36,096 nucleotides of DNA. It comes from Chiloscyllium plagiosum (taxonomy: Eukaryota). This document shows, in pieces, positions 1 to 36,096 of the stretch. Numbering within the stretch: the stretch's first letter is position 1; each line of letters begins with the position of its first letter. The translations under genes and the position numbers were made by a program. Under the pieces are notes generated by a model. That model saw nothing but the letters and a program-made list of their open reading frames with translations, ran no database searches and was not told where the DNA came from. The stretch covers positions 4,364,072-4,400,167 of the forward strand of contig NC_057755.1 in NCBI RefSeq assembly GCF_004010195.1. The letters are read 5' to 3'.

Positions 1-841
1 TGATTTGAATGGCCTGATGTTCTGTTGCACTCTTCGGAATTCCCAATGTGCTCGTATAATGTTAAAGCATGCAAGGCTGTGGGCCAAGTGCTGGAAAATG
101 GGACTAGAATAGGATGTGATTACTAGGGTGCTGATGGCCAAGTGGTATTATTGTTGTTCCGTTCGTCTCTAGTCCCAGATAGCGTTTTGAGGATGATGTT
201 AAAACAAGGCTTGGACAGATGGTGTTTGAACTGAACTGTTGAGGCAGAGTCTGGACTCAATGTCACAGACTTCCCAGGCCAAGCTACAGCTGTGTCTGTC
301 CCCTCAGGTAGTCGTGTATGGTCCATGGGATCCTGCAGGAGGACAGAAATTCCGGGCCAGAATTCAGAGGTTACATTCCCATCTCAGCTAACACCAGCCA
401 CTGATGTGTCCCACGACCTCCACGAACAGCTCGATGGAAGATTGTAACGAGCCTGCGCAATCCACCCCCTCACATTCCCAATGGGCACAGTCAATGGTCT
501 GGCCATTTAGCACGTTGAAGATGGAGGCTGTGATAATTAACTAATGAACCGTTTATCGTTTCATATGATATGCTACGGTGCTCCTGCACCTCACACTGTG
601 GCTGTGCAGTGATCACCAGAGGATGATTAAAGCATTGAATTAGCTGCTTCTGTACCTGATAGTGGCCAAGCCTATCGCTGCAGATGGAGACAGGGAATCC
701 TGGCTGTTGGTGGGAGGTGAGGATGTCTTTCAAAGGGAATGTGAGCAAGGAGAATGCTGGAGAAATCCCAGGCCTGTCTGGCAGCGTCCGAGGAGTGAAA
801 GAAACACTGCTCACATTTCCAGTCCCATTCCTGACGACATT

Positions 842-950
842 CTGAAGAAGAGTGAGAACAGACTGGAAACGTGAACTCTGTTTCTCTCTCTGTCTCTGCA
901 CAGATGCTGCCAGGCCTGCTGAGTCACTCCATCAGTGTCTGCTTCAGATT
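842..950 (+). mobile_element. Penelope-like element terminal-repeat remnant with degenerate hammerhead motif
   Basis: CTGAAGA...GAAACGTGAACTCTG followed by cacagatgctgccaggcctgctgag; the same tail recurs at several other sites in the window. Confidence 0.55.
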
Positions 951-3582: not shown

Positions 3583-3649
3583 ATGCTTCGGCGAATTCAA
3601 CACGTTGAGAGGGTGTTCATTACCATCCTTGCTTTTATTGGTGCTCTTG
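3583..3649 (+). CDS. Putative first coding exon of a shark-type GPR139/GPR142-like class A GPCR
   Basis: ATG 3583 reads MLRRIQHVERVFITILAFIGAL, then G|gtatag (phase-1 donor). It resembles the short N-terminus plus first half of TM1 of this family. The phase fits the ag|TA AAT (V-N) start of the exon-2 copies at 23047 and 28681. Confidence 0.6.
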
Positions 3650-4059
3650 GTATAGCATTATGAGAATTAAATGTTCATTGGACCCAAAATATTAACTCTG
3701 CTTTCTCTCCCACGGATGATGCCAGTCCTGCTGAGTTATCTCTGTCTTTGTCTTTGGGCTAAAGAGAGAAGGACCGAAAGACTGAACGGTTTTGTCCAAT
3801 CCCTTGTCATGTAGAACCTGAGATATTAGGAGAAGGACATTAACCTGGCCAGTGGTGCTCTAAAACACCCACTCCTCATTACTAACGCGAAATTTGTGAG
3901 AGTACATCAGAAAATATTGTAAACTGCCGGAAGTGCATTAAAATCATCCTCGTCGCCTTATGAAATCGTTTTTTGAGGTGTCTGAATATTATTGTAGTGG
4001 CTATATTTGGGTGCTCTGGATTTAAATAACCTATTCCCCTCAATTAGATTTCAGTTTAT

Positions 4060-4190
4060 AGTTGTTCTGGAAAAAAATACAACAGCTGAGGCAGCATTGA
4101 GGAACAGGAAAATCAACGTTGTGGGCAAAAGCCCTTCATCAGGAATGAGGCTGGGAGCTTCGGGGGTGGAGAGATAAATGGGGAGAAACT
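4060..4190 (-). mobile_element. Penelope-like terminal-repeat fragment with mutated hammerhead
   Basis: Minus strand reads cattcCTGATGAagggcttttgcccACAAcgttga (GAAA mutated); similar to 26651-26690 and 12510-12540. Confidence 0.6.
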
Positions 4191-6439: not shown

Positions 6440-6493
6440 NNNNNNNNNNNNNNNNNNNNNNNNNNNNNNNNNNNNNNNNNNNNNNNNNNNNNN
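6440..6493. other. Assembly gap (54 N)
   Basis: Run of N. Confidence 1.
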
Positions 6494-7614
6494 TCCACAC
6501 AGCTCCTTCATTTACAAACTTGACCTCAAAACATTACGCATTCCAATGTCCCAGACCTGCAGCGTCGCCATGACAACCACCATGCTGTACTGTCCCCACA
6601 TCAAAACCGGGAGAGTGAAGGTGACTCGCACTTCCACAGTATCCCTTGTATCCATCCCCCTCTAATGTAGTGTCTTTCCCACCCATTCCACAATTGCTGT
6701 CCACTCTGCCTACAGGCAGGCTGTCCCCACTGCCCAGAACTGGCTTCCCCAACTTCACTGCTACTGCAGGGTCCCCCGAAGCCCGCCCTGAGAATTTCAT
6801 CGAACTGATCCCCAATGACAGGAACGGACAGGGTCAGCATGGATTGGTGAACGGGAATTTAGAATCGAAAATTCTACCGGAGCATTTTGGGGATATAATA
6901 AGTAGTTTGTGTGGCCACCCCTCTGCTCTGCAGTGAATCCCTGATCTTGATTGTCCCAAACAATGTCAAAATCGTTAGACATGCTGTGCCAGTATCTCCA
7001 GACTGAATACTGTCTCCCTTACCCTGACTGAGAACTGGTTTCCTGAGGCTTTGAGACGTGCCCATTTGGTTGAAGTACATGCAGAGTGTTTGCTGCTTTA
7101 GCTGCTATTCCAAGTGCCTGACAGTCCAGCCCCTTGACTGATCACCACTAACAACAATGATAAGCTGCCTGGCGTATGTCTGCGATAAGCAACCAGGCAA
7201 GACAGGAGCACGGTGAAACATTAGGTTCTGGTTGAGCCATCAAATTTCAAAAAAGCTAAGGAAAGGCAGAGATGTTGTGCCAGTCCCTGGGCAGGGCATG
7301 TCTCAGGCACTGGAAAGGTTGCAACGTTTTTGGAGTAATAATATTCTTTGTGGGCAGATGCAGTGCTTTTATTTATCTCTGGCACATTGCACCCGCTCTG
7401 CAAGTGCCTATTGGACTTTTTAATGTGAGAATTGGCTCTCTGAATAATATGCCCCTGACTTGATCATTCGTGATGCCATACCCAATTGTCTTCTACGTCA
7501 GTGAATATGTAATCTGATTCAAACCACAGGCCTTTGAACTGAGAAAATAAAGCCTTCATAAACACACCTATTGATTCCAGTTGCTCTTGCACTCTGGTGA
7601 AAAACATTATTCAG

Positions 7615-8022
7615 TATTTACTAGGAATTTGTCGCGGTTGGATCATTTGAGCTATAGGGAGAGGCTGAATAGGCTGGGATTGTTTACTCTGGAGAGTCAG
7701 AGGCTGAGGGGTGACCTTCTAGAGATGTATAAAGTCATGACGGACATGATTAGGGTAAATAGACAAGACCTTTTCACTGGAGTGGGGTAGTTCAGAACTC
7801 GAGGGCAGAGGTTTAGGGTTAGAGGGGCAATGTTTGTGCATAGAGGATGAGCTTCCTGAGGAAGTGTTGGAGGCTGGTATAACATTTAAAAGGCATCTGG
7901 ATGGGTATATGAACAGGAAGGGTTCAGAGAGATATGGGTCAAGTTCTGGAAAACGGGATCACATGAGGTTAAAATACTTGGTCATCATGAACGAGTTGGA
8001 CTGAAAGGTCTGTTACCGTGCT
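7615..8022 (+). mobile_element. CR1-type LINE 3' fragment
   Basis: Translates to LSYRERLNRLGLFTLESQRLRGDLLEMYKVM (CR1 ORF2 C-terminus), followed by a typical CR1 3' end. Confidence 0.85.
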
Positions 8023-8042
8023 TTAACTGAATGTGCCATAGA

Positions 8043-8328
8043 GGGGCAGCACAGTGGTTTACACTGCTGTCTCCGAACACCAGGGAGCTGGGCTCGATTC
8101 TGTCCTTGGATGGCTGTCTCTGTGGAGTTAGCACATTCTTCTTGTGTATGTGTGGGTTTCCTTTCACATTCCAAAAGATGCGCAGGTCAGGTGAATTGGC
8201 AATGCGAAATTGCCCAAATTGTTAGGTACGTTATTCACAGGTAAAGTAGGGAAATGAATAGGGGTGGGTCAATCTTCAGGTGGACTTGCTGAGCCAAAGG
8301 GCCTGTTTCCACTCTTCAGGGAATCTAT
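8043..8328 (+). mobile_element. tRNA-derived V-SINE (HE1-like)
   Basis: tRNA-like head (ggcagcacagtggtt...gggctcgattc), central tgtggagttagcacattct...tgtgggtttcc domain and a LINE-like tail; decayed. Boundaries approximate. Confidence 0.75.
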
Positions 8329-9098
8329 TTTTTTTAAATCAGATCCTTTCCTGCTTCACAGTGTTCTCAAAATATCTAATTCAATACATCCGAATCATCC
8401 TCCTCCTCATCAAAATGAAAACTGTTGCATACTTCAATAGCTTTATCTTCTTCATTTCTTTTCTGAAATGCCGTTTGACATGAGGTAGAGCTGATGAAAA
8501 ATTTGTGTTTTTTCTATTGTTCGGAAAATGCACTAGGGATGAAGTGATAACATTGAGAGTCAGTACTGAACGTACAGTAAGAGACAGATAAATTAGATTC
8601 GAGGACAAGTTGCCTTGATCAAACAAAAGCGCATGTACTCTTTCTTATGCATAGATTCGGTTCACGAGAAATTAGGGAAACATCCAGAAAAGTGATCAAA
8701 TAAAACTGGTTTTCGAATATTTGAATGGGGAGTGCATCATTCCCAGAAATGTTGCAATACTAGGACTTTGCACCAAGTTGATATAGCAAGCTGCTAATCC
8801 ATCTCCAACACAGGGGGTGCGATTTTAGTTTGGGGGAGTTGAAAGAGACTGTCCCACAGTCTTGCCCCTCCATGTTGCTCAGACTGGGAGGCTCTCAGGT
8901 GAACTTATGTGCATCATTGAAGCAACAATTGGAACATAAGGCAGTTATTGGGATAGAAGACGCGTGAAGAGCTTGGAGTGGAATGCAGGGAATTGGATAA
9001 GGGAATCGGACTGCAGACAGGTACAATGGACCAATTGGCCGCTTCTGTGCCACAACATTCTATCATTCTGTGATCTCTTCCTCTCTCTCTTGAACCAG

Positions 9099-9217
9099 GT
9101 CTGCCTTTCTGCTGTGGAAAAGACGATGGGACCAGCAGACTAAGCACGTGTGCAGAGAATGAGTTCGAAACTAATGGGAAGTTTCTCCTGTTCTTCAAGT
9201 TTTGCAAGAGCTTGTGA
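9099..9217 (+). CDS. Beta-defensin-like mature-peptide exon, Cys-altered paralog (possibly a pseudogene)
   Basis: Polypyrimidine tract plus ccag| acceptor, phase 1. Reads (G)LPFCCGKDDGTSRLSTCAENEFETNGKFLLFFKFCKSL*, with ATTAAA at 9333-9338. Paralog of 13636-13754; C2, C4 and C5 are lost and one new Cys is gained. Confidence 0.65.
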
Positions 9218-9609
9218 GTTCCAACTGGGGAAGCATGGCCAAAGCGAAGCTCTGCTTGGTGCTAAACGCTGTCACTCTTCAGTTGTGTCAGCGGCAATGA
9301 GTGACAAGCCCACTCTTCATGCATTGACTTGAATTAAACTCACTGCATTCATGATCACTTCTGTTCTGTGTTCATTTCTCATGGAGAGAACACCATCCCG
9401 TCTTTATTTTGGAAGAATGTCCATCTGGTCCAAGATTCTCTCACATGCAGAAACAACTTCTCCCCACCTATCCTGTCGTGTCCCCTAAGAATCTTGCATG
9501 ATTCAATTAGGTACTAACTCAGTTTTCTAAACTCTGATGGGTACAGGTCCAGCCCTACTCAACCAATCCTCATCAGACATTCCCTCCATTCCTGGGATCA
9601 GTCTGATGA

Positions 9610-10470
9610 CCATCATAAGTTGGAAGGAAGGGGTGTTCACCAATGACTGCACAATGTTGAGCACCATTTGCAAATTCACAGATACTGAAATAATTTATGT
9701 TCAAATGCAATAACATCTGAAAACCATCCAGGCTCGGGCAGTGATACTTGCTCGTCATTACCATACAATGACCATCTCAAATAAGAGACAATGTAACCAA
9801 CTCCACATGAAACTTGATGGTGCAATCTTCATTGAATCCACCACTATCAACATCCTCGGACTTATCATTGACCAGAAACTCAAGTGAACTCACCAATAAA
9901 CCATGTGGTTACAAGAGCAGGTCAGAGGCTAAGAAAACTGTGGCAAGTAACGCCCAAAGTCTGTTCACAAAGTAGAAGGCACAAGTCAGGAATGTGTTGA
10001 GATATTCTCCATTTGCCGGAGTGAGTGCAGTTGCAGCAACACTCAAGAAGCTCGACAAGATCCAGGTCAAAGCAGACCACTTGACATCCACAAACATCCA
10101 CTCACTCTGTCACTGACACTCAGTAGCAGCAGTGTGTAATAGCTGCAAGATAGCACTGCAGAAATTCACCAAATATCCTTAGACAGGATCTGCCAATACG
10201 CTTTCATTGTGGAGGACAAGGATAATTGCGAAATTGGAACACTACCACTTGCAAGTTTACTATGAAGCCATTCAGCATCCTGGTTTGGAAATATATAGTC
10301 TTTTCTTCACTGTTGCTGGGTGAAAACAGAGATGTTCCCTCCCTTAAGACATTTTGCATCTACCTACAGCACATGGAATGTGACGACTCAAGAAAGCAAC
10401 TCAGCAAAACATTCCCAAGTCACCCAGGAACAGGCAATATATGCTGGGCCCAGTCAGCAATGCTCATGTC
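9610..10470 (+). mobile_element. Decayed non-LTR retrotransposon (CR1-group), RT C-terminus and 3' region
   Basis: Degenerate RT catalytic motif (GVFTNDCTML, cf. F/YADD) and an INILGLIIDQKL thumb-region motif, with many stops. Boundaries approximate. Confidence 0.75.
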
Positions 10471-10813
10471 GCATGAGTGAATTAAATGCGAACTTCCCTC
10501 CCTGGCAGTGCATTCCAGATCTCTGCTGTCTTCATTGCACCCCATGCTCCCAGTAAAACAATTCTTCCTTCAATCCATTCTAAATCTCTCACCTATCACT
10601 TTGACACGGTGGCCCTATGTTACTGAACCTTCGATTAAGGAAATGGATGCTCGCTATTCACCCTGTGCACACACCTCAGAATCTTCCAGACATTTACCAG
10701 CTGTCCCCTCGACCTTCTTTGCTCTAATAATCTCCCTTCATCACTGAATTGCTCCCATCCAAGCTACATCTTGGCGAATGATCTCTGCATTTCCTCCAAT
10801 GCAGTCACAGTTT

Positions 10814-11034
10814 AAAATCTCACAACCCCGGGTTATCGTCCAACAGGTTTATTTGGAAGCACTAGCTTTCAGAGCGCTGCTCCTTCATCAGGTGCTTGTG
10901 GTGTAGGACCATAAGTGTACATACTTCACAACCACCTGAAGGAGGAGTGGCGCTCTAAAACCTGTTGGACTGTAATTGGCGTTGTGTTATTTTTAACGTT
11001 GTCCTCCCCAGTCCAACATCGGTTCCTCCACATC
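10814..11034. mobile_element. Hairpin element made of two inverted Penelope-like terminal repeats
   Basis: aaaatctcacaac...ccttcatcaggtgcttgtg is inverted-complementary to cacaaccacctgaagg...gttgtgttattttt. Copies at about 15351-15570, 16207-16357 (partial) and 35200-35421. Confidence 0.75.
10857..10897 (-). ncRNA. Minimal type-I hammerhead ribozyme motif
   Basis: Minus strand: AAGCAC-CUGAUGA-A-GGAGC-AGC-GCUCU-GAA-AGCU-A-GUGCUU. This gives a 6-bp stem I, a 5-bp stem II, a palindromic AGCU stem III and an intact core. Confidence 0.7.
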
Positions 11035-11049
11035 AAAATAGCCACATCC

Positions 11050-11360
11050 ATCGATAGTGTGGTCACCAGAACTTCACGCAGTTCTCCAGTTGTGATCTAA
11101 CCAATGTCCTGTAAATCTCCAAGGTAACGTCCCTGCTCTCATAATCAATGCCTTGACTGATAAAGACAAGCACAGCCTTTGCCTTCTTAATTATCTAATA
11201 GCGTATGGTTGCAACTTCAGGTTCTGTGGACAAACAACCCAAAATCTCTCTGTTCCACTGACATTCCTGGTCTCCTACCATTCATTGAGTACTCTCGAGT
11301 CATGTTACTTATTTCAATGTTCATGAAGCCACATTTATCAGGGTTAAATTCCATCCACCA
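11050..11360 (-). mobile_element. CR1 LINE ORF2 fragment (also at about 15590-15895, 16375-16680 and, on plus, 34880-35185)
   Basis: The paralogous copy translates as KKAKAMLVFISRGVDYESREVTLEIYRTLVRSQLENCVKF, typical of the CR1 post-RT region. Confidence 0.8.
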
Positions 11361-11997
11361 CTCTTTTTTTGGGTTGGTGGTTTGCCTTATTAACAGGGAG
11401 AGAGAGGATGTCAGAAAATGGCAGTGCCATCGCTTGGAAAGGTAATGGCCCAGGTTGGATTGTCATCCTTCCTGGGGATGGTTGTGTCCCACCAAAGGGT
11501 GGCAGCATCCGAGTGCTGCTGACCTGGGAAGTCTCCGAAATTGATTGCAGCCTCCACCTCATATCTTCAGCTCAAAGACACAAAAGGGAACATTCTATAA
11601 CGATTGAAGTCGACATTTCTCCGTCACCATCACATAATGTAGCCCTCAGGGTGATGAAGTGCACAGCGACACAGTTTCGAATGACCCAGCATCAATTACA
11701 GAGTCATGGAGGTCTGCAGAAAAAAAGGCCTTTTGGCCGATCAAACCACTGTCGATCAAACACAAATCTCTAACTGTTGTTCTTAATCAATCACAAGTTG
11801 TAGGCATTACTGGCTGGACCATCATTTATTGCTTCCCTTAATTTCCAAGACGGCAATTGTAATCAACCACATGGCCATGGGTTTGGATTCACATGGATTC
11901 TATATTTCCCTAAAGGAGAGCAGTGAACCAAATGGACATCTTTCCCAACAATCACCAAAAGTTTCGTGGTCACCATTAGATACTCCATTCCCAATAT

Positions 11998-12497
11998 NNN
12001 NNNNNNNNNNNNNNNNNNNNNNNNNNNNNNNNNNNNNNNNNNNNNNNNNNNNNNNNNNNNNNNNNNNNNNNNNNNNNNNNNNNNNNNNNNNNNNNNNNNN
12101 NNNNNNNNNNNNNNNNNNNNNNNNNNNNNNNNNNNNNNNNNNNNNNNNNNNNNNNNNNNNNNNNNNNNNNNNNNNNNNNNNNNNNNNNNNNNNNNNNNNN
12201 NNNNNNNNNNNNNNNNNNNNNNNNNNNNNNNNNNNNNNNNNNNNNNNNNNNNNNNNNNNNNNNNNNNNNNNNNNNNNNNNNNNNNNNNNNNNNNNNNNNN
12301 NNNNNNNNNNNNNNNNNNNNNNNNNNNNNNNNNNNNNNNNNNNNNNNNNNNNNNNNNNNNNNNNNNNNNNNNNNNNNNNNNNNNNNNNNNNNNNNNNNNN
12401 NNNNNNNNNNNNNNNNNNNNNNNNNNNNNNNNNNNNNNNNNNNNNNNNNNNNNNNNNNNNNNNNNNNNNNNNNNNNNNNNNNNNNNNNNNNNNNNNN
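11998..12497. other. Assembly gap (500 N)
   Basis: Exactly 500 N, probably a fixed scaffolding placeholder. Confidence 1.
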
Positions 12498-12630
12498 AAT
12501 AAAAGCTTTTGAAGGGCTTTTGCCCGAAACGTCGATTTTGCTGCTCGTCGGATGCTGCCTGAATTGCTGTGCTCTTCCAGCACCACTGATCCAGAATCTG
12601 GTTTCCAGCATCTGCAGTCATTGTTTTTAC
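12498..12630 (+). mobile_element. Penelope-like terminal repeat inserted into the SINE of copy B
   Basis: gaagggcttttgcccgaaacgtcga...gatgctgcctgaattgctgtgctcttccagc abuts the SINE body at 12632; absent from the equivalent position in copy A. Confidence 0.7.
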
Positions 12631-12631
12631 C

Positions 12632-12860
12632 TCTGTCCTTGGGTGGCTGGCTGTGTGGAGTTAGCACATTCTTCTTGTGTATGTGTGTGTTTCCTTTCAC
12701 ATTCCAAAAGATGCGCAGGTCAGGTGAATTGGCAATGCTAAATTGCCCAAAGTGTTAGTTACGTTATTCACAGGTGAAGTAGGAAAATGAATAGGGGTGG
12801 GTCTATCTTCAGGTGCACTTGCTGAGCCAAAGGGCCTGCTTCCACGCTGTTGGGAATCCA
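12632..12860 (+). mobile_element. HE1-like SINE, duplicated copy of 8099-8328
   Basis: Near-identical to the SINE body in copy A. Confidence 0.75.
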
Positions 12861-13635
12861 ATTTAAAAAAAAAAATCAGATCCTTTCCTGCTTTACAGTG
12901 TTCTCAAAATATCTAATTCAATACATCCGAATCATCCTCTTCATCATCAAAATCCAAACTGTTGAATACTTCAATAGCTTCATCTTCTCCATTTCTTTTC
13001 TGAAATGCCGTTTGACATGAGGTAGAGCTGGTGGAAAATTTGTGTTTCTTCTATTGTTCGGAACATGCACCAGGGATGAAGTGATAACATTGAGAGTGAG
13101 TGCTGAACGTACAGTAAGAGACAGATAAGTTAGATTCGAGGACAAGTTGCCTTGACCAAACAAAAGCGTATGTACGCTTTCTTATGCATAGATGAGGTAC
13201 CCGAGAAATTAGGGAAACATCTATAAAAGTGAACAAATAAAACTGGTTTTCGAATATTTGAATGGGGAGTGCACCAATCCCAGAAATGTTACAATACTAG
13301 GACGATGCACCAAGTTGATATAGCAAGCTGCAAATCCATCTCCAACACAGGGGGTGCGATTTTAGTTTGGGGGAGTTGAAAGAGACTGTCCCACAGTCTT
13401 GCCCCTCCATGTTGCTCAGACTGGGAGGCTCTCAGGTGAACTTATGTGCATCATTGAAGCAACAATTGGAACATTAAGCAGTTCTTAGTATCGAAGACGC
13501 GTGAACTGCTTGGAGTGCAACGCAGAAAATTGGATAAGGGAATCGAAATGCATACAGGTACAATGGACCAATTGGCCGCTTCTGTGCCACAACATTCTAT
13601 CATTCTGTGATCTCTTCTTCTCTCTCTTGAACCAG

Positions 13636-13754
13636 GTCTGCCATTCCGCTGTGGAAAAGACAAAGGGAGCTGCAGACTGAGCACGTGTGCAGAGAATGAG
13701 TTCGAAATTAATGGGAAGTGTCTCTTGTTCTTCAACTGTTGCAAGAGCTTGTGA
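13636..13754 (+). CDS. Beta-defensin-like mature-peptide exon with intact six-cysteine motif
   Basis: Acceptor tctcttcttctctctcttgaaccag|, phase 1. Reads (G)LPFRCGKDKGSCRLSTCAENEFEINGKCLLFFNCCKSL*, i.e. C-X6-C-X4-C-X10-C-X5-CC with GxC at C2 and C4 and Glu after C3. Stop 13752-13754, alternative phase-2 donor gtgagt at 13751, AATAAA at 13869. Confidence 0.85.
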
Positions 13755-13868
13755 GTTCCAACTGGGAAAGCATGGCCAAAGCGAAGCTCTGTTTGATGCT
13801 AAATGCTGTCACTCCTCAGTTGTGTCAGCAGCAATGTGTGACAAGCTCACTCTTCTTGCATTGACTTG

Positions 13869-13874
13869 AATAAA
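13869..13874 (+). promoter_or_regulatory. Polyadenylation signal candidate for the defensin-like gene
   Basis: AATAAA about 115 nt after the stop, followed by a T/GT-rich tract (ttctgttctgtgttc); ATTAAA at the same place in copy A. Confidence 0.55.
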
Positions 13875-14149
13875 ACTCACTGCATTCATGATCACTTCTG
13901 TTCTGTGTTCATTTCTCATGGAGAGAACACCATCCCGTCTTTGTTTTGAAAGAAAGCCCATCTGGTCCAAGATTCTCTCACAAGCAGAAACAACTTATCA
14001 GCACCTACCCTGTCGTGTACCCGAAGAATCTTGCATGATTCAACTAGGTACTAACTCAGTTTTCTAAACTCTGATGGGTACAGGTCCAGCCCTACTCAAC
14101 CATTCCTCATCAGACATTCCCTCCATTCCTGGGATCAGTCTGATAACCA

Positions 14150-15025
14150 TCATAAGTTTAAAGGTAGGGGTGTTCACCATTGACTGCACAATGTTGAGCA
14201 CCATTTGCAAATTCACAGATACTGAAATAGTTTATGTTCAAATGCAACAAAATCTGAAAACCATCCAGACTCGGGCAGTGATACTTGCTCGTCATTACCA
14301 TACAATGACCATCTCAAATAAGAGACAATGTAACCAACTCCACATGAAACTTGATGGTGCAATCTTCATTCAATCCACCACTATCAACTCCCTCGGGCTT
14401 ATCATTGACCAGAAACTCAAGTGAACTCACCAATAAACCCTGTGGTTACAAGAGCATGTCAGAGGTTAAGAAAACTGTGACAAGTAACACCCAAAGTCTG
14501 TGCACCAACTACAAGGCACAAGTCAGAAATGTGTTGAGATATTCTCCATTTGCCGGGGTGAGTGCAGTTCCAGCAACAAGCAAGAAGCTCGACAAGATCC
14601 AGGACAAAGCAGACCACTTGACATCCACAAACATCCAATCACTCTTTCACTGACACTCAGTAGCAGTAGTGTGTAATAGCTGCAAGACAGCACTGCAGAA
14701 AATCACCAAATATCCTTAGACAGGATCTGCCAATACGCTTTCATTGTGAAAGACAAGGATAATTGCTAAATTGGAACACTACCACTTGCAAGTTTACTAT
14801 GAAGCCATTCAGCACCCTGATTTGAAAATATATAGTCTTTCCTTCACTGTTGCTGGGTCAAAGCAGAGGAGTTCTCTCCCTTAAGACATTTTGCATCTCC
14901 CTACGGCACATGGAATGTGACGACTCAAGAAAACAACTCAATCAACATTTCCAAGTCACCCAGAAACAGGCAATATATGCTGGGCCCAGTCAGCAATGCT
15001 CATGTCGCATGAGTGAATTAAATGC
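14150..15025 (+). mobile_element. Decayed non-LTR retrotransposon RT fragment (duplicate of 9610-10470)
   Basis: ORF 14074-14424: VGVFTIDCTML...INSLGLIIDQKLK. Confidence 0.75.
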
Positions 15026-15420
15026 GAACTTCCCTCCCTGGCAGTGCATTCCAGATCTCTGCTGTCTTCATTGCGCCCCATGCTCCCAGTAAAAACAATT
15101 CTTCCTTCAATCCATTCTAAATCTCTTACCTATCACTTTAACATGGTGCCCCTATGTTACTGAACCTTCGATTAAGGAAAGGGATGCTCGCTATCCACCC
15201 TGTGCACACACCTCAGAATCTTCCAGACATTTATCAGCTGTCCCCTCGACCCTCTTTGCTCTAATAATCTCCCTTCATCACTGCATTGCTCCCCTCCAAG
15301 CTACATCTTGACGAATGATCTCTGCATTTCCTCCAATGCAGTCACAGTTTAAAATCTCACAACCCCGGGTTATCATCCAACAGGTTTATTTGGAAGCACT
15401 AGCTTTCAGAGAGCTACTCC

Positions 15421-16992
15421 TTCATCACGTGCTTGTGGTGTAGGACCATAAGTGTACATACTCCACAACCACCTGAAGAAGGAGTGGCGCTCTGAAACCT
15501 GTTGGACGATAATTGGCGTTGTGTGATTTTTAACTTTGTCCTCCCCAGTCCAACATCGGTTCCTCCACATCAATATAGCCACATCCATCTATAGTGTGGT
15601 CACTAGAACTTCACGCAGTTCTCCAGTTGTGACCTAACCAATGTCCTGTAAATCTCCAAGGTAACTTCCCTGCTCTCATAATCAACGCCTCGACTGATAA
15701 AGACAAGCATAGCCTTTGCCTTCTTAACTATCAAATAGTGTATGGTTGCAACTTCAGATTCTGTGGACAAACACCCCAAAATCCCTCTGTTCCACTGACA
15801 TTCCTGGTCTCCTACCATTCATTGAGTACTCTCGAGTCATGTTACTTATTTCAATGTTCATGAATCCACATTTATCAGGGTTAAATTCCACCCACCACTC
15901 TTTTTTTGGGTTGGCGGTTTGCCTTATTAACAGGGAGAGAGAGGATGTCAGAAAATGGTAATGTCATCGCTTGGAAAAGTAATGGTCCAGGTTGGAATGT
16001 CATCATTCCTGGGGATGGTTGTCTCCCACCAAAGTGTGGCAGCATTCGAGTGCTGCTGATCCTGGGAAGTCTCCGAAATTGATTGCAGCCTCTACCTCAT
16101 ATCTTCAGCTCAAAAACAGAAAAGCGAACATTCTACAACGATTGAAGTCGACATTTCTCCGTCACCATCACATGATGTAGCCCTCAGGGTGATGAAGTGC
16201 ACGGCGTTCATCAGGTGCTTGTGGTGTCGGACCATAAGTGTACATACTCCACAACCACCTGAAGAAGGAGTGGCGCTCTGAAACCTGTTGGACTGTAATT
16301 GGCGTTGTGTGATTTTTAACTTTGTCCTCCCCAGTCCAACATCGGTTCCTCCACATCAATGCAGCCACATCCATCTATCGTGTGGTCACCAGAACTTCAC
16401 GCAGTTCTCCAGTTGTGACATAACCAATGTCCTGAAAATCTCCAAGGTAACTTCCCTGCTCTCATAATCAACGCCTCGACTGATAAAGACAAGCACAGCC
16501 TTTGCCTTCTTAACTATCTAATAGTGTATGGTTGCAACTTCAGGTTCTGTGGACAAACACCCCAAAATCCCTCTGTTCCACTGACATTCCTGGTCTCCTA
16601 CCATTCATTGAGTACTCTCGAGTCATGTTACTTATTTCAATGTTCATGAAGCCACATTTATCAGGGTTAAATTCCAACCACCACTCTTTTTTTGGGTTGG
16701 CGGTTTGCCTTATTAACAGGGAGAGAGAGGATGTCAGAAAATGGTAATGTCATCGCTTGGAAAAGTAATGGTCCAGGTTGGAATGTCATTATTCCTGGGG
16801 ATGGTTGTCTCCCACCAAAGTGTGGCAGCATCCGAGTGCTGCTGATCCTGGGAAGTCTCCGAAATTGATTGCAGCCTCGACCTCATATCTTCAGCTCAAA
16901 AATAGAAAAGCGAACATTCTACAACGATTGAAGTCGACATTTCTCTGTCACCATCACATGATGTAGCCCTCAGGGTGATGAAGTGCACGGCG
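15421..16992 (+). repeat. Tandem duplication, 2 x 786 bp (15421-16206 and 16207-16992)
   Basis: Both units start ttcatca and end gtgcacggcg; present once in copies A and C. Confidence 0.95.
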
Positions 16993-27997: not shown

Positions 27998-28680
27998 TTT
28001 GTAATTGAAATACATCTGCCCTCAAACCGACCATTAAGAAAGAACGTTCCTCTTACATCCCCAGTACTCCTTTGCTCTGCCATGACAACTGATTTAAAAC
28101 TGATCTTTTTAGATATTTTACAGCTATGATGGCATGTTTTCCTCCGAATATAACTCACTGGAGTGAGGCACCTAACTTTTCAGAAGGTAGGGAATGGCCT
28201 ATAGGTAACTCCAGATCCACAGCAATGTAATTGAATCTTAATTCCTTACTTAGCAAATAGCAATATAAGCTGGCCTTGCCAGTGATGTCAACATGAATAA
28301 AAGGAAAAGAGTGGTCCAACGTTTAGCACTTCCCTATCATAGGGTTTGTCCAATTTTCACACTATATTATCCAGTTGTGTCAATTGTTCTTGAAGGAGTC
28401 ACAGGCTGGATGCAGAGTTGGTTCACCGTTATAACTGTTGCATGTTTCTATGGATAGCTTTTGGATTGGTATTCGATATTCCATTTGCAGCCTCTTTCTA
28501 TTCAAGTCAAACATTTTCAATGGAATTGGAAACTTAATGATTTGCCGTTGTGCTCATACTTTCTGAAACTTCTGGCTAATTTTATCTTGCTGTTGTAGCG
28601 AACATTCAGATTGCTTAAATACTTATATAGAAAATAGTGTTCATTAATACCCAGTCATTTTTCCATTATCATTCTGCCAG

Positions 28681-29477
28681 TAAATTCCATGTCGATTTTG
28701 ATCCTGTCCCAGGGAAAGTGAGGCCTCGCTACCTGCATAACACGTTATCTGGTGTCCATTGCAACAGCAGATCTACTGGTCATTTTCACGGACTGTTCTG
28801 TCTAGTTCACTGTCACATTCACCTTTGATCGCTTTGTCAGCTTTTGTTGCCACAAACTGAAAACTAAATACTGTACTCGTAATTGTTTACTGTATTTGTA
28901 TCAACAATCGACATTCTGCTTTGTTTAAAAAATGGTCTTGGCATTTTAGTTTTGAGACTAAAAAATATAACGAGGAACAGGCTATTTTACGGCAGGAATA
29001 AGGGCAACTACTTTTCTGACTCTTGCTGCATTGGATTCCACTCATTTGATGTGGCTTTAACCCCATTCTTGCCTTATTTTACATTGTGTTCCTCAATGAT
29101 CTGACAGTCGCACACACTTTATTTACAAGACAACCCTATAAGGGACTGAGGGGTCTGAGTCAGGAAGACGAGCAGAGTGAGCCCAAGCTGAAGTGCAGAA
29201 TTCAGACAGTGATTTTACGCTTTGCAATATCTAGAAAGTTCGTAATTCTCTGGCTGTTATATGTTTTCCATATATTTGGTCTCCCAGAACAGTTAACGGA
29301 TTATGACTATGAAATCTTTGAATCTTTGAACAAGTTGGATACATGCTGCGCAATGTAAGTTGCGGCACAAACGCAAATATTTACATGGTGTCTCTATCCA
29401 ATGTCAGAGCTCAGTTCAAAAGAACGATGAAATATCCAGTTTCCAGCATTATTTAACTAATCACTGCATAAACCTGA
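28681..29477 (+). pseudogene. GPR139/GPR142-like GPCR pseudogene, main coding exon
   Basis: NSMSILILSQGK*GLATCITRYLVSIATADLLVIFT-DCSV*FTVTFTFDRFVSFCCHKLKTKYCT / ILLCLKN...FDVALTPFLPY / FLNDLTVAHTL...KGLRG...ILWLLYVF / VSCGTNANIY...MKYPV. Stops at 28719 and 28803; DRF at 28827-28835. Confidence 0.9.
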
Positions 29478-31702
29478 CAAAAGCTCAAAATCCAGTGGGT
29501 AGGGGGTAAGAAATGATCATTGAAGACCAAAGGTAACCATTCTAGAGATGCACATCTCTCAGAGAGAAAACAGAAGATAGAATATTTAGCAGACATCAAG
29601 AGAACGAAAAGAAGGTGAAGATAAGGACACAGGTTTCCCAATTCATGGAGAAGAGGGAACATTTCTGTTCTGAAGAATTTTCACTGGACCCGAAGCATTA
29701 ACTGGAATTTCTCTCCCACAAATGCTGCCAAACCGACTGAGTCTTTGCAGCAATTTATATTTTCGTTCTTGTTTCATATTTGGGAGACCAGCGTAAAGGA
29801 GCTGGAGATATTGCATAGTCTAAAGATCAATGGAGCAAGGGCCAGAGCCAAAATTCACCTAAGATTATTGGAACTGAAATGGCAGGAGCAGGGACTCTGC
29901 TTCCTCCTGTATCATGGAAAGCTAATCATGATCCAAAGTGTCACTTCCAGCTCTGTTAGTTCCATTTCCAGGCCATTGCATTCGGGGAAGCAAAAGAACA
30001 TTTCAGTTTTCAAAATGGAAATCAATGCAGATGCAAAACTGCTTTCCACGTCAATAAAAAATATCTCAATTATTAATATAATGTAGATTCTCACACCACT
30101 AGCTGGTGTTGGGGGTATACTTATCTCCGGATGCCTCGTGATACTGCTTGTTTATTGGGAGTTGGAGGGAGATGGGAGTACGTGTGGTAATCTGGGCAGA
30201 TTATAAACGTCATGGTTACTATCATTAAGAAGGATTGGGTGGAAAGCTGGAGGTGGGTCCAGGGACTGACACTGTATTCAATGTTGGGGTCAATGTCATT
30301 GATTGACAGCTGTTGACAACCCTCCACCACTTCCTGGAAACTGCCTTAGGTTGACAAAAAAAACCCAGTCACAAATTTGAAAATGAGTTTTTAGATAACT
30401 TCGAACAGGTCTCAGCATCAAGAGAGTTTGTTTCCATTTAATTATTGCATCAGCTCATTTAATGTGTAAATCTTCCAACGCTCTGTTCTCACATTATTAT
30501 TGGAAATTTCAAATTCTGACTTGGCATGATATTAGTGTCAGTAAGCCTCATGTTGTTGAAATGAATGCTGTCCATCATGTAACTCCTGCCACACGTGGTC
30601 TCTAACTGAACTGCATTGTCTCCAGAAACATCTGCATTTCGAAGTGGTCTTGTTTTCAAATCTGTCAATGATTTCACCCAATCTTTCTCTCGAACCACTT
30701 CACGTTTGCACGACTTCCTATCTCCGCACGACCTCCAGGCTGGAAACATCCCTATTTCAGTAATCCTTCCCAACCACAATGAATTTTCCTGACTATGCCA
30801 TAGCTTGCAGTTTGCTGAAGCTAATTCCCTTACATTACCCGCGAGGCAAATGCGGCCGTACCCACTTCTGCAGTCTGCTCCAAACTCTACAGTCCTCCAG
30901 AACTCTGTATCATCCTCCAGCCTCACTGTGTTTATTATTTGTATTTGCCTCCAGTGTTCCTGCATCCACTCTTTTTCTGCCCTTCTGCAGTCCTACTCCA
31001 TCATTATTATTGTAAGCACTTGCACACTCACATAACTTCTCTTTCCCTTTGACCTTCTCCAGAGACACTCCCTCTTATTTCTGCAAATAATTCGAGACTC
31101 ACAGGACTCTCAGTTCTGTGATCTTCTCCAAACCGTTTCATGCGCTAATACAGTCATCATATTTGGCCTCACAATACTCCCTAAGCCCATGCCTTTCTGC
31201 AGTCCTACTGTGTAAAGTTCTGAGTGATATAGACAGGTAAATAGCGCAAACTCTTTCCCCTCAGTCGGGAGTCAGTAACCAACATGCACCGATATAAGGT
31301 AAGGGGATTTGAGCAATTTTTTTCACGAGGTATTTAGAGTTATCTGGACCTCATTGCCTGAAAAGATCTGAACAGGTATGAATTGTCACAACAATCAAGA
31401 ACTATTTAGATGAGCACTTGAAATACCATAGTATGCAAGGCTGCGAGCTAAATGATGGAATATAGGATTAGAAAAGATTAATCTTCCATGACGTTTATAG
31501 ACACAATGATACATTGTTCCTCCCTACATGGTTTAAAAATCCCAATCACTCTATGGTACAATGATACTCGCTCCTGTTATTATGAGACCCAACATTCTAT
31601 TGCCATTCCCGATCACATGCTGCCCCGTGTGCTCGTTTTCCGTTTTCTCCCAAGTTGCTTTGTGTTGCAACTTTCTCCATTTCAAGAATCTGTGCTTTTG
31701 TT

Positions 31703-31924
31703 AGATTAGATTAGATTAGATTACGTACAGTGTGGAAACAGGCCCTTCGGCCCAACAAGTCCACACCGCCCCGCCGAAGCGCAATCCACCCATACCCCTA
31801 CTTCTACCCCTTACCTAACACTACGGGCAATTTAGCATGGCCAATTCAACTGACCTGCACATCTTTGGACTGTGGGAGGAAACCGGAGCACCCGGAGGAA
31901 ACCCACGCAGACACGGGGAGAATG
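31703..31924 (-). mobile_element. Young 5'-truncated HE1-like SINE specific to copy C
   Basis: V-domain ccggagcacccggaggaaacccacgcagacac and (agatt)n tail; CpG-rich; absent from copy B. Confidence 0.85.
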
Positions 31925-34900
31925 AGTTTTGAACACAGAACATTCACTTCTTTGTTCCAAATCATTAACAGCATGCAGATCCCATCTTATTTAACCTCAG
32001 GTGATCGCCAGGTTAAATCATCATCAGCTGTCTCCCAGTAGTTACACATTCCTTATGAACAGCTAATGTTTTCTTCAATATTTACCTCTGAAGCAGAACA
32101 AGTCGCCATCCTGTCTGCCATCCTGTTTGGAAGCTTGCCCTCCCTGTGAACCAACAGTTTACTCACTGCTTGAGCAATGAAGAAGGAAAATGGAAAGTTG
32201 GCCTCCATTGCAAAAGGATTGGACTTCAGATTCAAGATGCTTCACTGAATCTGTTCAGGGACTTGGGGAAACCAGCCCTGGAGCAGTGTGTGTTGTTTAG
32301 TCACCCTACCACAAAGAGGACATTTTCACCATCTGCAGAGTGCCCATCGAGACTGTTCCACCACTCCATCAGATCTTAACTGATCATCCTCAAGTCCATT
32401 TCTATGCCTTTTCCACTCAATCCTTGATTCCCTTCCGAATTAAACATCTCTCTGTCACAACCTTGAATATACTTAATGACCCACCCTCCACAGCCCTCTG
32501 TGATAAAGAATGCCGCAGTTTTAATTTTCTATGATAGAAGCCATTTCTCCTCAGATCAGCCTGAAATGGACGACCCCTTACTATGAGGTGATGCTTTCTG
32601 GCCCAAGAGTTTGCCAAAAGGGGAAAGAACCTTTCTCTATCTAGCCTGTCAAATCCCCTGATAGTCTTATATGTTTCAGTAAAGTTCTTCTTACTCTACT
32701 GAGCGCAGGGCCAATCCACTTAATCTCTTCTAATGCGACGGTCCCCTCTATACCTGGGAAAAGATTTGTGAACCTGCTCATAAACAAGCTGAGCAAGTAA
32801 GATTCAGGGTACATCGGGTGAAGTGCATAATATGGTCTATCCTTCAGTCATTGACAGGCTGTACCTGAACCAGGTTTCCAAGTGGACAGAGCAAAGTTTT
32901 GCAGACCTCCTGCTCAGCTGTTCAGGGCTCTGTCCGAGGCTCAGACTGTCCTTCAGGATTTCATTAAAGGTCTGAATCAATCGTGATGCTGCTGAGAACT
33001 GTTTTGCTGGAACTGTATGAAACATTGTTCTGGGTTCATTATGTGCACTTCGGGATCTACATGATAGGATAGATGTGACAGTGGATGTAGGCAGAGGTGA
33101 TTAACCAGCATGTTGCCTGAGTTGAAGAGATTCACTTGCGAACACAGTTTGGACAGAGTGGAGTTTTATTTTCTCAGAACAGATCAGATTCAGAGGGGAC
33201 ATGATAGAGATATATCGATGAGAGGCACAGTCAGGGTAGACAGGAAGAAACTACTCCCTTCGGTGGAGGCAGAAATGGCCAGGGGACATAGATTTACAGG
33301 AAGGGATGGAAGATTTAGAGGGATTGTGGGATTTCTATTTTATTCAGTCAGAAGGTAGTGGGAATCTGGAACTCACTGGCTGTAAGGCTGATGGAGTCAG
33401 AAGGGTTCATCATTTTGAAGAGGTATTCAGATGAAAGCATTTATAGGGATATCAGGGTACAACCCAATATCTCCAGGCCAGTATCAACGCAAGCGGCTAA
33501 GGTGGTAAAGAAGGCGTCGGGCAGGCTTGTGATTTTCAGTTAGGCCACTGAGTTGGAAATTCATGTTACGACGGTATAAGATTTTAGTGGTTCCACATTT
33601 GGAGTACTACGTGTAGTTCCAGCCACCACAATAAGGGAAGGCTGTGGAGGTCTCAGAAATGGAAATGTGTTGCTGGAGAAGCGCAGCAGGTCAGGCAGCA
33701 TGAATAACCAAAGTCTTTGACACATGGTGGAAATGTCAAACACTAGGGGCAAAGGTTTAATTTGAGGGAAAATGTTTGGAGGTGCTGCACGAGGCAAGTG
33801 TTTTTATGAAGAGGATGGTTAGTGACTGGAGCACGGTGCAAGAGGAGTTGGTCAAAACAGTTACATTCACAAAGTGAAAGATCCATTTATGAACACTCAT
33901 AAACAGCAAGTGAGTAGAGGGATACAGACTATGTTCAGACAGATGGTATTACAGTTGAATGGCATTGTGGTCCTCACAGACATGGGGGGATGGGATGAAT
34001 GGACTGTTCTTATGCTGCACTCTTTTATATTGTCAATGTGCACTTGTGTTGCCGAGGCATGCAGGCTTGTAGGCCCATCGTTGCAAAATGGAATCAGAAT
34101 GGAATTAGTTCATTGGAGGGGACATGGCCCAGTGATATTATTGTGGATTGTTGGTCTAGAGTCCCAAGGAGGATTTTGAGGAACTTGGTTTAATTCAGAC
34201 CTTGGCAGACGGTGGAAATGAATTTTAATGAAACAAATATTGGGAATGGAGTGTCTAATGGTGACCACGAAACTTGTGGTGATTGTTGGGAAAGATGTCC
34301 ATTTGGTTCACTGCTCTCCTTTAGGGAAATATAGAATCCATGTGAATACAAACCCATGGCCATGTGGTTGATTACAATTGCCGTCTTGGAAATTAAGGGA
34401 AGCAATAAATGATGGTCCAGCCAGTAATGCCCACAACTTGTGATTGATTAAGAACAATAGTTAGAGATTTGTGTTTGATCGGCAGTGGTTTGATCGGCCA
34501 AAAGGCCTTTTTTTCTGTAGACCTCCATGACTCTGTAATTGATGCTGGGTCATTCGAAATTGTGTCGTCGTGCACTTCATCACCCTGAGGGCTACATCAT
34601 GTGATGGTGACGGAGAAATGTCGACTTCAATCGTTGTAGAATGTTCGCTTTTCTGTTTTTGAGCTGAAGATATGAGGTAGAGGCTGCAATTAATTTCGGA
34701 GACTTCCCAGGGTCAGTAGCACTCGGATGCTGCCACCCTTTGGCGGGACACAACCATCCCCAGGAAGGATGACAATCCAACCTGGGCCATTACCTTTCCA
34801 AGCGATGACACTACCATTTTCTGACATCCCCTCTCTCCCTGTTAATAAGGCAAACCACCAATCCAAAGAAAGTGTGGTGGGTGGAATTTAACCCTGATAA

Positions 34901-35337
34901 ATGTGGCTTCATGAACATTGAAATAAGTAACATGACTCGAGAGTACTCAATGAATGGTAGGAGACTAGGAATGTCAGTGGAAGAGAGGGATTTTGGGTTG
35001 TTTGTCCACAGAACCTGAAGTTGCAACCATACGCTATTAGATAGTTAAGAAGGCAAAGGCTGTGCTTGTCTTTATCAGTCGAGGCATTGATTATGAGAGC
35101 AGGGAAGTTACCTTGGAGATTTTCAGGACATTGGTTATGTCACAACTGGAGAACTGCGTGAAGTTCTGGTGACCACACGATAGATGGATGTGGCTGCATT
35201 GATGTGGAGGAACCGATGTTGGACTGGGGAGGACAAAGTTAAAAATCACACAACGCCAATTACAGTCCAACAGGTTTCAGAGCGCCACTCCTTCTTCAGG
35301 TGGTTGTGGAGTATGTACACTTATGGTCCTACACCAC

Positions 35338-35378
35338 AAGCACCTGATGAAGGAGCAGCTCTCTGAAAGCTAGTGCTT
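35338..35378 (+). ncRNA. Minimal type-I hammerhead ribozyme motif (copy C)
   Basis: AAGCAC-CTGATGA-A-GGAG-CAGCT-CTCT-GAA-AGCT-A-GTGCTT; core intact, stem II 4 bp. Confidence 0.65.
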
Positions 35379-35749
35379 CCAAATAAACCTGTTGGACGAT
35401 AACCCGGGGTTGTGAGATTTTAAACTGTGACTGCATTGGAGGAAATGCAGAGACCATTCGCCAGGATGTAGCTTGGATGGGAGCAATTCAGTGATGAAGG
35501 GAGATTATTAGAGCAAAGAAGGTCGAGGGGACAGCTGATAAATGCCTGGAAGATTCTGAGTTGTGTGCACAGTTTGAATAGCGAACATCCCTTTCCTTAA
35601 TCGAAGGTTCAGTAACATAGGGGCACCATGTTAAAGTGATAGGTAAGAGATTTAGAATGGATTGAAGGAAGAATTGTTTTACTGGGAGCATGGGGTGCAA
35701 TGAAGACAGCAGAGATCTGGAATGCACTGCCAGGGAGGGAAGTTCGCAT

Positions 35750-36096
35750 TTAATTCACTCATGCGACATGAGCATTGCTGACTGGGCCCAGCATATATTG
35801 CCTGTTCCTGGGTGACTTGGGAATGTTTTGCTGAGTTGCTTTCTTGAGTCGTCACATTCCATGTGCTGTAGGCAGATGCAAAATGTCTTAAGGGAGGGAA
35901 CATCTCTGTTTTCACCCAGCAACAGTGAAGGAAAGACTATATATTTCCAAATCAGGGTGCTGAATGGCTTTATAGTAACCTTGCAAGTGGTAGTGTTCCA
36001 ATTTAGCAATTATCCTTGTCCTTCACAATGAAAGCGTATTGGCAGATCCTGTCTAAGGATATTTGTTGAATTTCGGCAGTGCTATCTTGCAGCTAT
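35750..36096 (-). mobile_element. 3' region of the non-LTR fragment, third copy
   Basis: Reverse complement of about 10138-10470 and 14676-15025. Confidence 0.7.

What the first reader, a model, noticed from the sequence alone, without database searches (positions are those of the whole stretch)
13636..13874. Hidden beta-defensin-like exon missed by the ORF track
Seen: a strong phase-1 acceptor, then LPFRCGKDKGSCRLSTCAENEFEINGKCLLFFNCCKSL*, then AATAAA and a GT-rich tract. Established: beta-defensins have about C-X6-C-X3/4-C-X9-C-X5/6-CC spacing with GxC motifs, and a phase-1 intron between the signal and mature exons. Inference: this is a probably unannotated antimicrobial-peptide gene of a cartilaginous fish, with low net charge (6 basic, 4 acidic residues). 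A gtgagt donor right after CCKS would also allow a fish-like third exon.
Basis: partly seen in the sequence, partly recalled or inferred. Interest (0 to 1): 0.88.

Follow-up and report, generated by a model that had tools for sequence, protein, structure and literature searches.

The report
Probably dead shark beta-defensin gene copy
The flagged exon is a real piece of a beta-defensin (antimicrobial peptide family) gene in a shark-type genome, but this copy is most likely a disabled passenger of local duplications, while the large gene family around it, including a fast-evolving neighbour gene, looks alive.

Summary
The exon is real: phase-1 acceptor, 38 codons with six cysteines, stop, AATAAA. 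Pfam beta-defensin models match it full length just under cut-off, and its predicted fold matches beta-defensins best. It is probably not a working gene. The matching signal-peptide exon (window 623-716) has an in-frame TAG at codon 7, shared by 12 of 17 copies of its lineage. This copy's own first exon is lost at an assembly break, but both assembled first exons of its closest clade carry the TAG, and its sister copy has deleted that exon. The seven recent mature exons diverge like intron DNA and 3 of 7 have lost cysteines. A second defensin gene lying head-to-head in the same duplicated cassette keeps all cysteines in 7 of 7 copies and changes 2.5 times faster than introns, so the flagged exon looks like a passenger. 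The proposed fish-like third exon is not supported. The genome holds at least 60 intact-looking defensin exons of tetrapod-like layout; I found no paper describing shark beta-defensins. The scan noted this family four times before on other pieces of this genome.

The parts
13613..13635 (+). Pyrimidine tract and CAG splice acceptor of copy B
   Evidence: sequence; same context in sister copies
13636..13754 (+). Copy B: beta-defensin-like mature-peptide exon, phase 1, six cysteines, stop included (the finding)
13751..13756 (+). GTGAGT overlapping the stop codon; probably not a used donor
   Evidence: 5 of 60 intact exons have it, all this subfamily
13869..13874 (+). AATAAA polyadenylation signal, at the same offset in the intact-looking sister copies
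13896..13909 (+). T/G-rich downstream element
   Evidence: sequence; function inferred
623..716 (+). Signal-peptide exon (31 codons + 1 base, phase-1 donor at 717) collinear with copy A; not shown to be copy B's own first exon
   Evidence: homology to the open first exon of paralogue C101976 and others
641..643 (+). In-frame TAG at codon 7 of the signal exon, shared by 12 of 17 copies of the lineage
9099..9217 (+). Copy A: decayed mature exon, three of six cysteines lost, no Pfam match, ATTAAA in place of AATAAA
11998..12497 (.). 500-N assembly gap that cuts copy B off from its upstream sequence
12498..12631 (.). Right arm of an inverted repeat-element pair; the contig starts at its centre. 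Unplaced contig C80403 ends at the same point
12632..16206 (+). Segment duplicated at 8099-11668 (93.8% identical)
27998..36096 (-). Inverted duplicate of the region downstream of copy B (93-96%), leading to copy C just beyond the window end (C46:4401534-4401647, minus)

Best explanation
13636-13754 is the second (mature-peptide) exon of a two-exon beta-defensin gene, and this copy is most likely an unprocessed pseudogene. Shown: the exon's anatomy and family; a homologous signal exon 5-10 kb upstream in five collinear units; a TAG at codon 7 of that exon in most copies; neutral-looking divergence. Inferred: the stop arose once in an ancestor of 17 copies; a cassette holding this dead 'type I' gene head-to-head with a live 'type II' beta-defensin was then duplicated several times on C46; selection acted on type II and type I came along as a passenger; copy B looks intact only because the duplications are recent (2-4% per lineage). 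A transcript, if made, would stop after six codons, 73 bases before the exon junction, and probably be degraded. An open relative (C101976) would give a 70-residue precursor whose mature part folds as a three-disulfide beta-defensin of low net charge, by family analogy a secreted host-defence or signalling peptide (not tested).
For: TAG in 12 of 17 first exons in a clade of support 100/97; the 4 outgroup rows have TTG or CTG. Contig C80403 ends at the base where B's contig starts, judged by the unbroken sister copy C. With it, B groups with C, 4310641 and C100047 (100/99); the matching 5' clade is C, 4310641, C94920 (100/100). Both assembled first exons of that clade carry TAG; C has lost exon 1 by a deletion of about 6.8 kb whose junction lies in unbroken sequence and occurs once among 40 listed matches. 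The one unplaced open first exon (C77332, TCG) overlaps by 33 identical bases the flank of a gap in a different unit, sister to copy A (100/100). Seven recent type I exons: mean distance 0.065 in the exon, 0.066 intron, 0.063 3' UTR; 5 synonymous and 17 non-synonymous changes, omega 0.80; 5 cysteine-destroying changes against 3.7 expected if neutral, 4 of 7 copies keep all six. Control from the same cassette: type II keeps six cysteines in 7 of 7 (0 changes against 3.9 expected, P 0.02), non-synonymous distance 0.174 (0.120-0.234) against intron 0.070, and 5 of 5 distinct first exons that my pattern picked up are open.
Against: B's own first exon is not assembled, so its codon 7 was not seen. 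5 of 17 copies no longer have the stop (TCG, TTG, CAG twice, AAG), so reversion happens. B keeps its acceptor, frame, six cysteines and AATAAA. The neutrality test is small (22 changes; non-synonymous distance 0.025-0.104), so moderate constraint is not excluded; 3 of 7 against 0 of 7 copies with cysteine loss is not significant alone (Fisher P 0.19). The exon 1-exon 2 pairing rests on homology and phase, not on a transcript. B's last 800 intron bases are closest to C100047 (1.4% apart), which lacks the inverted repeat, so conversion or allelism blurs the tree; both lie in the same clade.
Confidence: 0.8

Rival explanations
1. Copy B is a working (or re-opened) beta-defensin gene whose own first exon is hidden in an assembly gap and lacks the stop.
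For: Intact exon 2, splice and polyadenylation signals. 5 of 17 first exons lack the stop. B's upstream is not assembled beyond about 3 kb of intron-equivalent sequence.
Against: 2 of 2 assembled first exons in B's clade have TAG and the sister copy lost the exon. The open TCG exon belongs to another unit. No sign of constraint on the seven mature exons.
Confidence: 0.14
2. The TAG is conditional: read through, edited, or bypassed by another first exon or a near-cognate start, so the TAG-bearing genes make small amounts of peptide.
For: The stop is old (copies about 80% identical share it) yet 4 of 7 recent mature exons are intact; the base after the stop is C, a leaky context (recalled).
Against: The number of intact exons is what neutral drift predicts. 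Eight older copies have no type I exon 2 within the 5.7-10 kb fetched downstream (L192-L199, three with gaps). One TAG copy has a second stop in exon 1. No ATG in frame after the stop.
Confidence: 0.04
3. The cysteine pattern is a chance reading of a repeat or low-copy duplicated DNA, not a defensin exon.
For: The Pfam score of B is below the cut-off; no relative in the protein databases.
Against: A 71%-identical paralogue passes the cut-off (25.6 bits; identity); 60 distinct intact exons share the spacing and 58 a phase-1 acceptor; top fold matches are beta-defensins.
Confidence: 0.02

Closest known systems
Tetrapod beta-defensins (Pfam PF00711, PF13841; solved examples hBD-2 1fd3, mallard AvBD3 7lzl, crocodile CpoBD13 7t9q)
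   Same: Two-exon layout with all six cysteines in exon 2 behind a phase-1 intron (PMC11541337, PMC7203481, PMC3978493, passages); predicted helix plus three strands, TM 0.74 to 1fd3; clustered genes with decayed copies.
   Different: Spacing X10 and X5 rather than about X9 and X6; first exon of 31 codons with a short acidic piece after the hydrophobic stretch; low net charge (+2); this copy is probably dead.
Teleost beta-defensins (zebrafish BD1-3, seabream defb1/defb2)
   Same: Six cysteines, small prepropeptide of 60-77 residues, net charge +1 to +5 (PMC3978493, passages).
   Different: Teleost genes have three exons with the cysteines split 4 + 2 and are few and, in seabream and seabass, not clustered (PMC11541337, passages); here all six lie in one exon and the family has dozens of members.
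Big defensins (invertebrates, amphioxus)
   Same: Same phase-1 intron before the cysteine-rich domain (PMC7203481, passages); C-terminal domain 6qbk is among the fold matches.
   Different: No hydrophobic N-terminal globular domain: the first exon encodes only 31 residues.
Birth-and-death beta-defensin clusters with copy-number variation (for example PMC4255768, abstract start only)
   Same: Recent segmental duplicates, pseudogenes beside fast-evolving live genes.
   Different: Here the passenger and the driver are two defensin subfamilies in one head-to-head cassette.

Membership tests
Vertebrate beta-defensin | Six cysteines in beta-defensin order ending in CC | tested here: met
   C5, 12, 17, 28, 34, 35; spacing X6-X4-X10-X5, shared by 60 of 60 intact exons picked by a pattern that allowed 9-11 at the third gap
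Vertebrate beta-defensin | Profile match over Pfam's curated cut-off | tested here: inconclusive
   B scores 19.3 of 21 bits, full length; 4 of 9 paralogues tested pass (23.2-25.6 bits), one of them 71% identical to B
Vertebrate beta-defensin | Helix plus three-stranded sheet fold | tested here: met
   Model pLDDT 73, H4-7 E10-13 E21-24 E33-37; Foldseek ranks 1-5 are beta-defensins, best E 0.29, TM 0.74, rmsd 1.9; VIA-align best Z 4.3, rmsd 2.7, 37 aligned. Scores are low, as for any 38-residue model
Vertebrate beta-defensin | C1-C5, C2-C4, C3-C6 disulfides | not testable with these tools
Vertebrate beta-defensin | Phase-1 intron in front of the cysteine exon | tested here: met
   Acceptor at 13635, donor after 94 coding bases in exon 1; 58 of 60 intact exons have a phase-1 AG. 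Genomic inference, no transcript
Vertebrate beta-defensin (functional gene) | Open signal-peptide exon joined to the mature exon | tested here: inconclusive
   B's own exon 1 is unassembled; 2 of 2 assembled first exons of its clade have TAG, the sister copy has deleted it. Met for paralogue C101976
Vertebrate beta-defensin (functional gene) | Constraint on the cysteines | tested here: not met
   5 cysteine-destroying changes in 7 copies against 3.7 expected if neutral; small sample
Vertebrate beta-defensin (functional gene) | Expressed, secreted, antimicrobial or chemotactic | not testable with these tools
   No suitable RNA run; needs bench work
Teleost three-exon beta-defensin | Cysteines split 4 + 2 over exons 2 and 3 | tested here: not met
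   All six are in one open exon; teleost layout from PMC11541337
Big defensin | Hydrophobic N-terminal globular domain | tested here: not met
   First exon has 31 codons only

The most novel reading that the evidence does not exclude
Cartilaginous fish carry a very large, undescribed beta-defensin repertoire: well over 60 intact-looking genes, perhaps more than 100 loci, in a dozen subfamilies, mostly on the smallest chromosomes, with the tetrapod two-exon layout. That would move the family's known origin from 'teleosts to mammals' back to the root of jawed vertebrates and make the teleost third exon a later gain. Parts of it, such as the type II genes beside this exon's lineage, are diversifying under selection and drag dead neighbours along.
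Probability: 0.55. Interest if true: 0.65.

Novelty: new member of a known kind. Interest (0 to 1): 0.36.

Why it matters
For this exon alone, little: it is probably a pseudogene, and it shows that an intact mature exon with good splice and polyadenylation signals does not prove a live defensin gene. It does point to the right targets. The head-to-head type II genes and the open paralogue on C101976 are the candidates to test, and the family as a whole would fill a gap: a 2019 review lists no defensin among shark antimicrobial peptides (PMC6795676, section 14), and a 2020 paper gives the range of beta-defensins as teleosts to mammals (PMC7203481, passages).

Tried and rejected
Signal exon within 1 kb upstream of 13636: my scan for open hydrophobic phase-1 exons found none in the window; the exon was found by comparing paralogues. 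Expression: no RNA holder listed. Laying four runs on 400-14300: X1 and X2 cover introns like DNA; X5 (single-cell RNA, about 2 in 100 of the run read, tissue unknown, no positive control) has zero depth in the bins holding exon 1, copy A, copy B and its 3' end; X6 laid nothing, so no test; no exon 1-exon 2 joint among the 15 joints shown (133 not shown). I give this no weight. Protein databases: no relative for B at 22-70 or 71-2000 residues, none for type II at 24-77; the profile search gave 4 long repetitive cysteine-rich proteins, not defensins. PDB by sequence: only weak rows, AvBD3 at E 0.86. The Atlas could not read the sequence. Pfam PF00711 over the genome is noisy: 28 matches, many partial, and it rang in 3 of 14 control genomes below cut-off. 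V-set domains did not tell the taxon; globins did. Rfam: no match in the window. Idea that C77332 (open exon 1) is B's first exon: rejected. Idea that copy C's exon 1 hides in the 809-N gap: rejected, it is deleted. Idea that C94920 directly abuts B: not shown, it ends about 830 bases short and shares an insertion with C100047. Positive selection on type II by dN/dS alone is not significant (53 against 7 changes, P 0.11; intervals of pN and pS overlap); it rests on the intron comparison. Literature searches that found no paper on shark defensins: (open-access library only; subscription papers and database annotations are not covered).

Full report
Observation. Cysteines stand at 5, 12, 17, 28, 34 and 35; there are six basic and four acidic residues. 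A loose six-cysteine motif appeared in 2 of 200 simulated windows of the same composition. I call this exon copy B.

Family. Pfam Defensin_beta matches positions 2-36 of 36 at 19.3 bits (cut-off 21) and Defensin_beta_2 at 17.3 (cut-off 22.2). Of 9 paralogues scanned, 4 pass the cut-off, 3 match below it and 2 give no match; one that passes is 71% identical to B. A model built from a 9-row alignment has pLDDT 73 and a short helix with three strands. Foldseek's first five rows are beta-defensins (best hBD-2, E 0.29, TM 0.74; none reaches E 0.001) and VIA-align's first six are too (best Z 4.3). Disulfide pairing was not read. Two globin exons of the genome match PDB 1gcv/1gcw/3mkb best, which I recall as shark haemoglobins, so a cartilaginous fish is likely.

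It is one of many. The peptide gives 58 matches in the genome at E up to 10, of 65 candidates scored. Four more single-protein searches widened this (11, 64, 39 and 29 matches) and one subfamily alone gave 84. A profile run over the 201 loci then held found 97 distinct hits of 14 bits or more. Among the loci held, 60 distinct exons (56 peptides) have six cysteines and a stop within 25 residues; 58 of 60 have a phase-1 acceptor, 45 of 60 a polyadenylation signal within 400 bases; net charge runs from -3 to +7. I fetched only part of the matches, so this is a floor for the assembly; unplaced contigs may be second haplotypes, which inflates it. Most placed copies outside the scattered subfamily lie on C46, C49 and C50.

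Local structure. The window holds a decayed copy A at 9099-9217 (three cysteines lost), and an inverted duplication leads to copy C just beyond the window end. Comparing paralogues located the first exon: ATG 623, 31 codons plus one base, donor at 717, in phase with exon 2. It lies collinearly upstream of exon 2 in five units (A, C46:3909960, C46:3848903, C46:3756487, C101976). In the window it has TAG at codon 7 (641-643). A DNA search gave 20 copies; with one more from fetched loci I built a tree of 21 rows. Seventeen form a clade (100/97): 12 have TAG, 2 CAG, 1 AAG, 1 TCG, 1 TTG; the four outside have TTG or CTG. The simplest reading is one old nonsense change and four later single-base changes away from it.

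Which first exon is B's? B's contig starts at 12498, behind a 500-N gap, at the centre of an inverted repeat pair that is unbroken in copy C. Contig C80403 is the only other match among 40 listed that includes this repeat junction and it ends at the base before B's first base. It continues the intron to window-equivalent 6184 and then meets a gap. On that stretch B groups with C, 4310641 and C100047 (100/99; C94920 left out of this tree for short overlap); on the 5' intron the matching clade is C, 4310641 and C94920 (100/100). Both assembled first exons of the clade have TAG. Copy C has lost exon 1 and its neighbour gene in a deletion of about 6.8 kb, a junction seen once. The one unplaced open exon, C77332, shares 33 identical bases with the flank of a 4934-N gap at C46:4291321-4296254, in a unit that is sister to A (100/100), not to B. 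Against a clean story: B's last 800 intron bases are 1.4% from C100047, which lacks the inverted repeat, so conversion or allelism has mixed these copies; and B's own codon 7 remains unseen.

Selection. For seven recent type I exons (the second of a tandem pair was dropped from eight) mean distance is 0.065 in the exon, 0.066 in the intron and 0.063 in the 3' UTR; 5 synonymous and 17 non-synonymous changes give omega 0.80; eight first exons (one likely allele dropped) give 0.85. Five changes destroy a cysteine against 3.7 expected under neutrality; 4 of 7 copies keep all six. The same cassettes carry a second defensin gene head-to-head (type II). Its seven mature exons keep all cysteines (0 against 3.9 expected, P 0.02) while non-synonymous distance is 0.174 (0.120-0.234) against 0.070 in the intron; the five distinct first exons that my pattern picked up are open. 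The samples are small: the copy-level contrast has Fisher P 0.19, and type II pN and pS intervals overlap. Together they fit a live, diversifying type II gene driving or surviving the duplications and a dead type I gene carried along.

Third exon. In teleosts four cysteines lie in exon 2 and two in exon 3 (PMC11541337, passages; PMC3978493, passages), so a donor after the CC is not the fish layout. The GTGAGT overlaps the stop and occurs in 5 of 60 intact exons, all type I, while AATAAA follows in the same exon. The gene layout is that of tetrapods.

Expression could not be judged; see Tried and rejected.

Novelty. Seven searches of the open-access library (listings and abstract starts) gave no paper on defensins of cartilaginous fish. 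PMC6795676 (section 14 read) lists none among shark antimicrobial peptides; PMC7203481 (passages) gives the range as teleosts to mammals and describes the shared phase-1 intron; PMC10707392 mentions defensin only in a reference; PMC13337447 has nothing on it (passages). I read no supplements; genome-paper supplements and database annotations may list such genes. No relative was found in the protein collections, which are weak for short peptides. The scan's own notes hold four earlier reports of this family on other pieces of this genome; they agree on a large, partly decayed family, which I had already found, and did not change my reading. None was near this window.

Verdict. A real beta-defensin-family exon, new member of a known kind, most likely a pseudogene (0.8). 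Interest 0.36 for the finding: the exon is ordinary, but it marks a large and apparently undescribed repertoire (probability 0.55, interest 0.65 if true) and points to better candidates beside it.

Noticed in passing
G000:C46:4313368-4314392 (L087 3369-4393), and C46:4290299, 4229652, 3904320, 3843274, C94920:14187, C55986:143: Type II beta-defensin genes head-to-head with the type I first exon, 2.5-4.6 kb away; short intron (under 1 kb), open signal exons, six cysteines kept in 7 of 7, exon diverging 2.3-2.5 times faster than intron. Best candidates for live, diversifying genes.
   Followed up: partly
G000:C101976:16699-21967 (L053): Fully open two-exon type I gene; mature exon passes the Pfam cut-off (25.6 bits). 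Probably the living relative of the finding.
   Followed up: partly
G000:C46:3848903-3860239 (L081, L052): Type I unit with an open first exon (TTG at codon 7) and two tandem copies of exon 2, 383 bases apart, both behind a GAG rather than CAG acceptor.
   Followed up: no
G000:C8, C7, C11, C23, C32, C38, C48, C16 and many unplaced contigs (L183-L190, L202-L207): A further six-cysteine subfamily with 84 matches at E up to 0.01, many 85-95% identical, scattered over large chromosomes as if spread by a mobile or segmental unit.
   Followed up: no
G000:C16:71649085, 71668412, 72343095; C21:1994658; C45:12891603; C99736:16847; C46:1751310; C98004:10373: Older copies of the type I first exon with no type I exon 2 in the 5.7-10 kb fetched downstream: orphan first exons on other chromosomes.
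   Followed up: partly
G000:C49:8902762, C49:8828956, C27:51556547, C81426, C81816, C17161, C92287 (L011-L018): A clade of decayed type I-like exons that lost the second cysteine and the CC pair.
   Followed up: no
window 15421-16992: Tandem duplication of 786 bases at 97.5% identity, specific to the copy B unit.
   Followed up: no
window 1-12497 and G000:C46:4359220-4364071: A second TAG-bearing first exon with 3 kb of intron lies just left of the window, separated by a 1058-N gap; contig order in this cluster may be wrong and several unplaced contigs look like alleles or gap fillers (C81810, C81054, C77332, C80403, C92167).
   Followed up: partly
G000:C44:12.4-14.5 Mb, C9:2.0-4.3 Mb, C41:18.5-19.0 Mb, C25:44.1-45.3 Mb: Dense clusters of V-set immunoglobulin-type exons; two from C44 resemble antigen-receptor V domains.
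   Followed up: no
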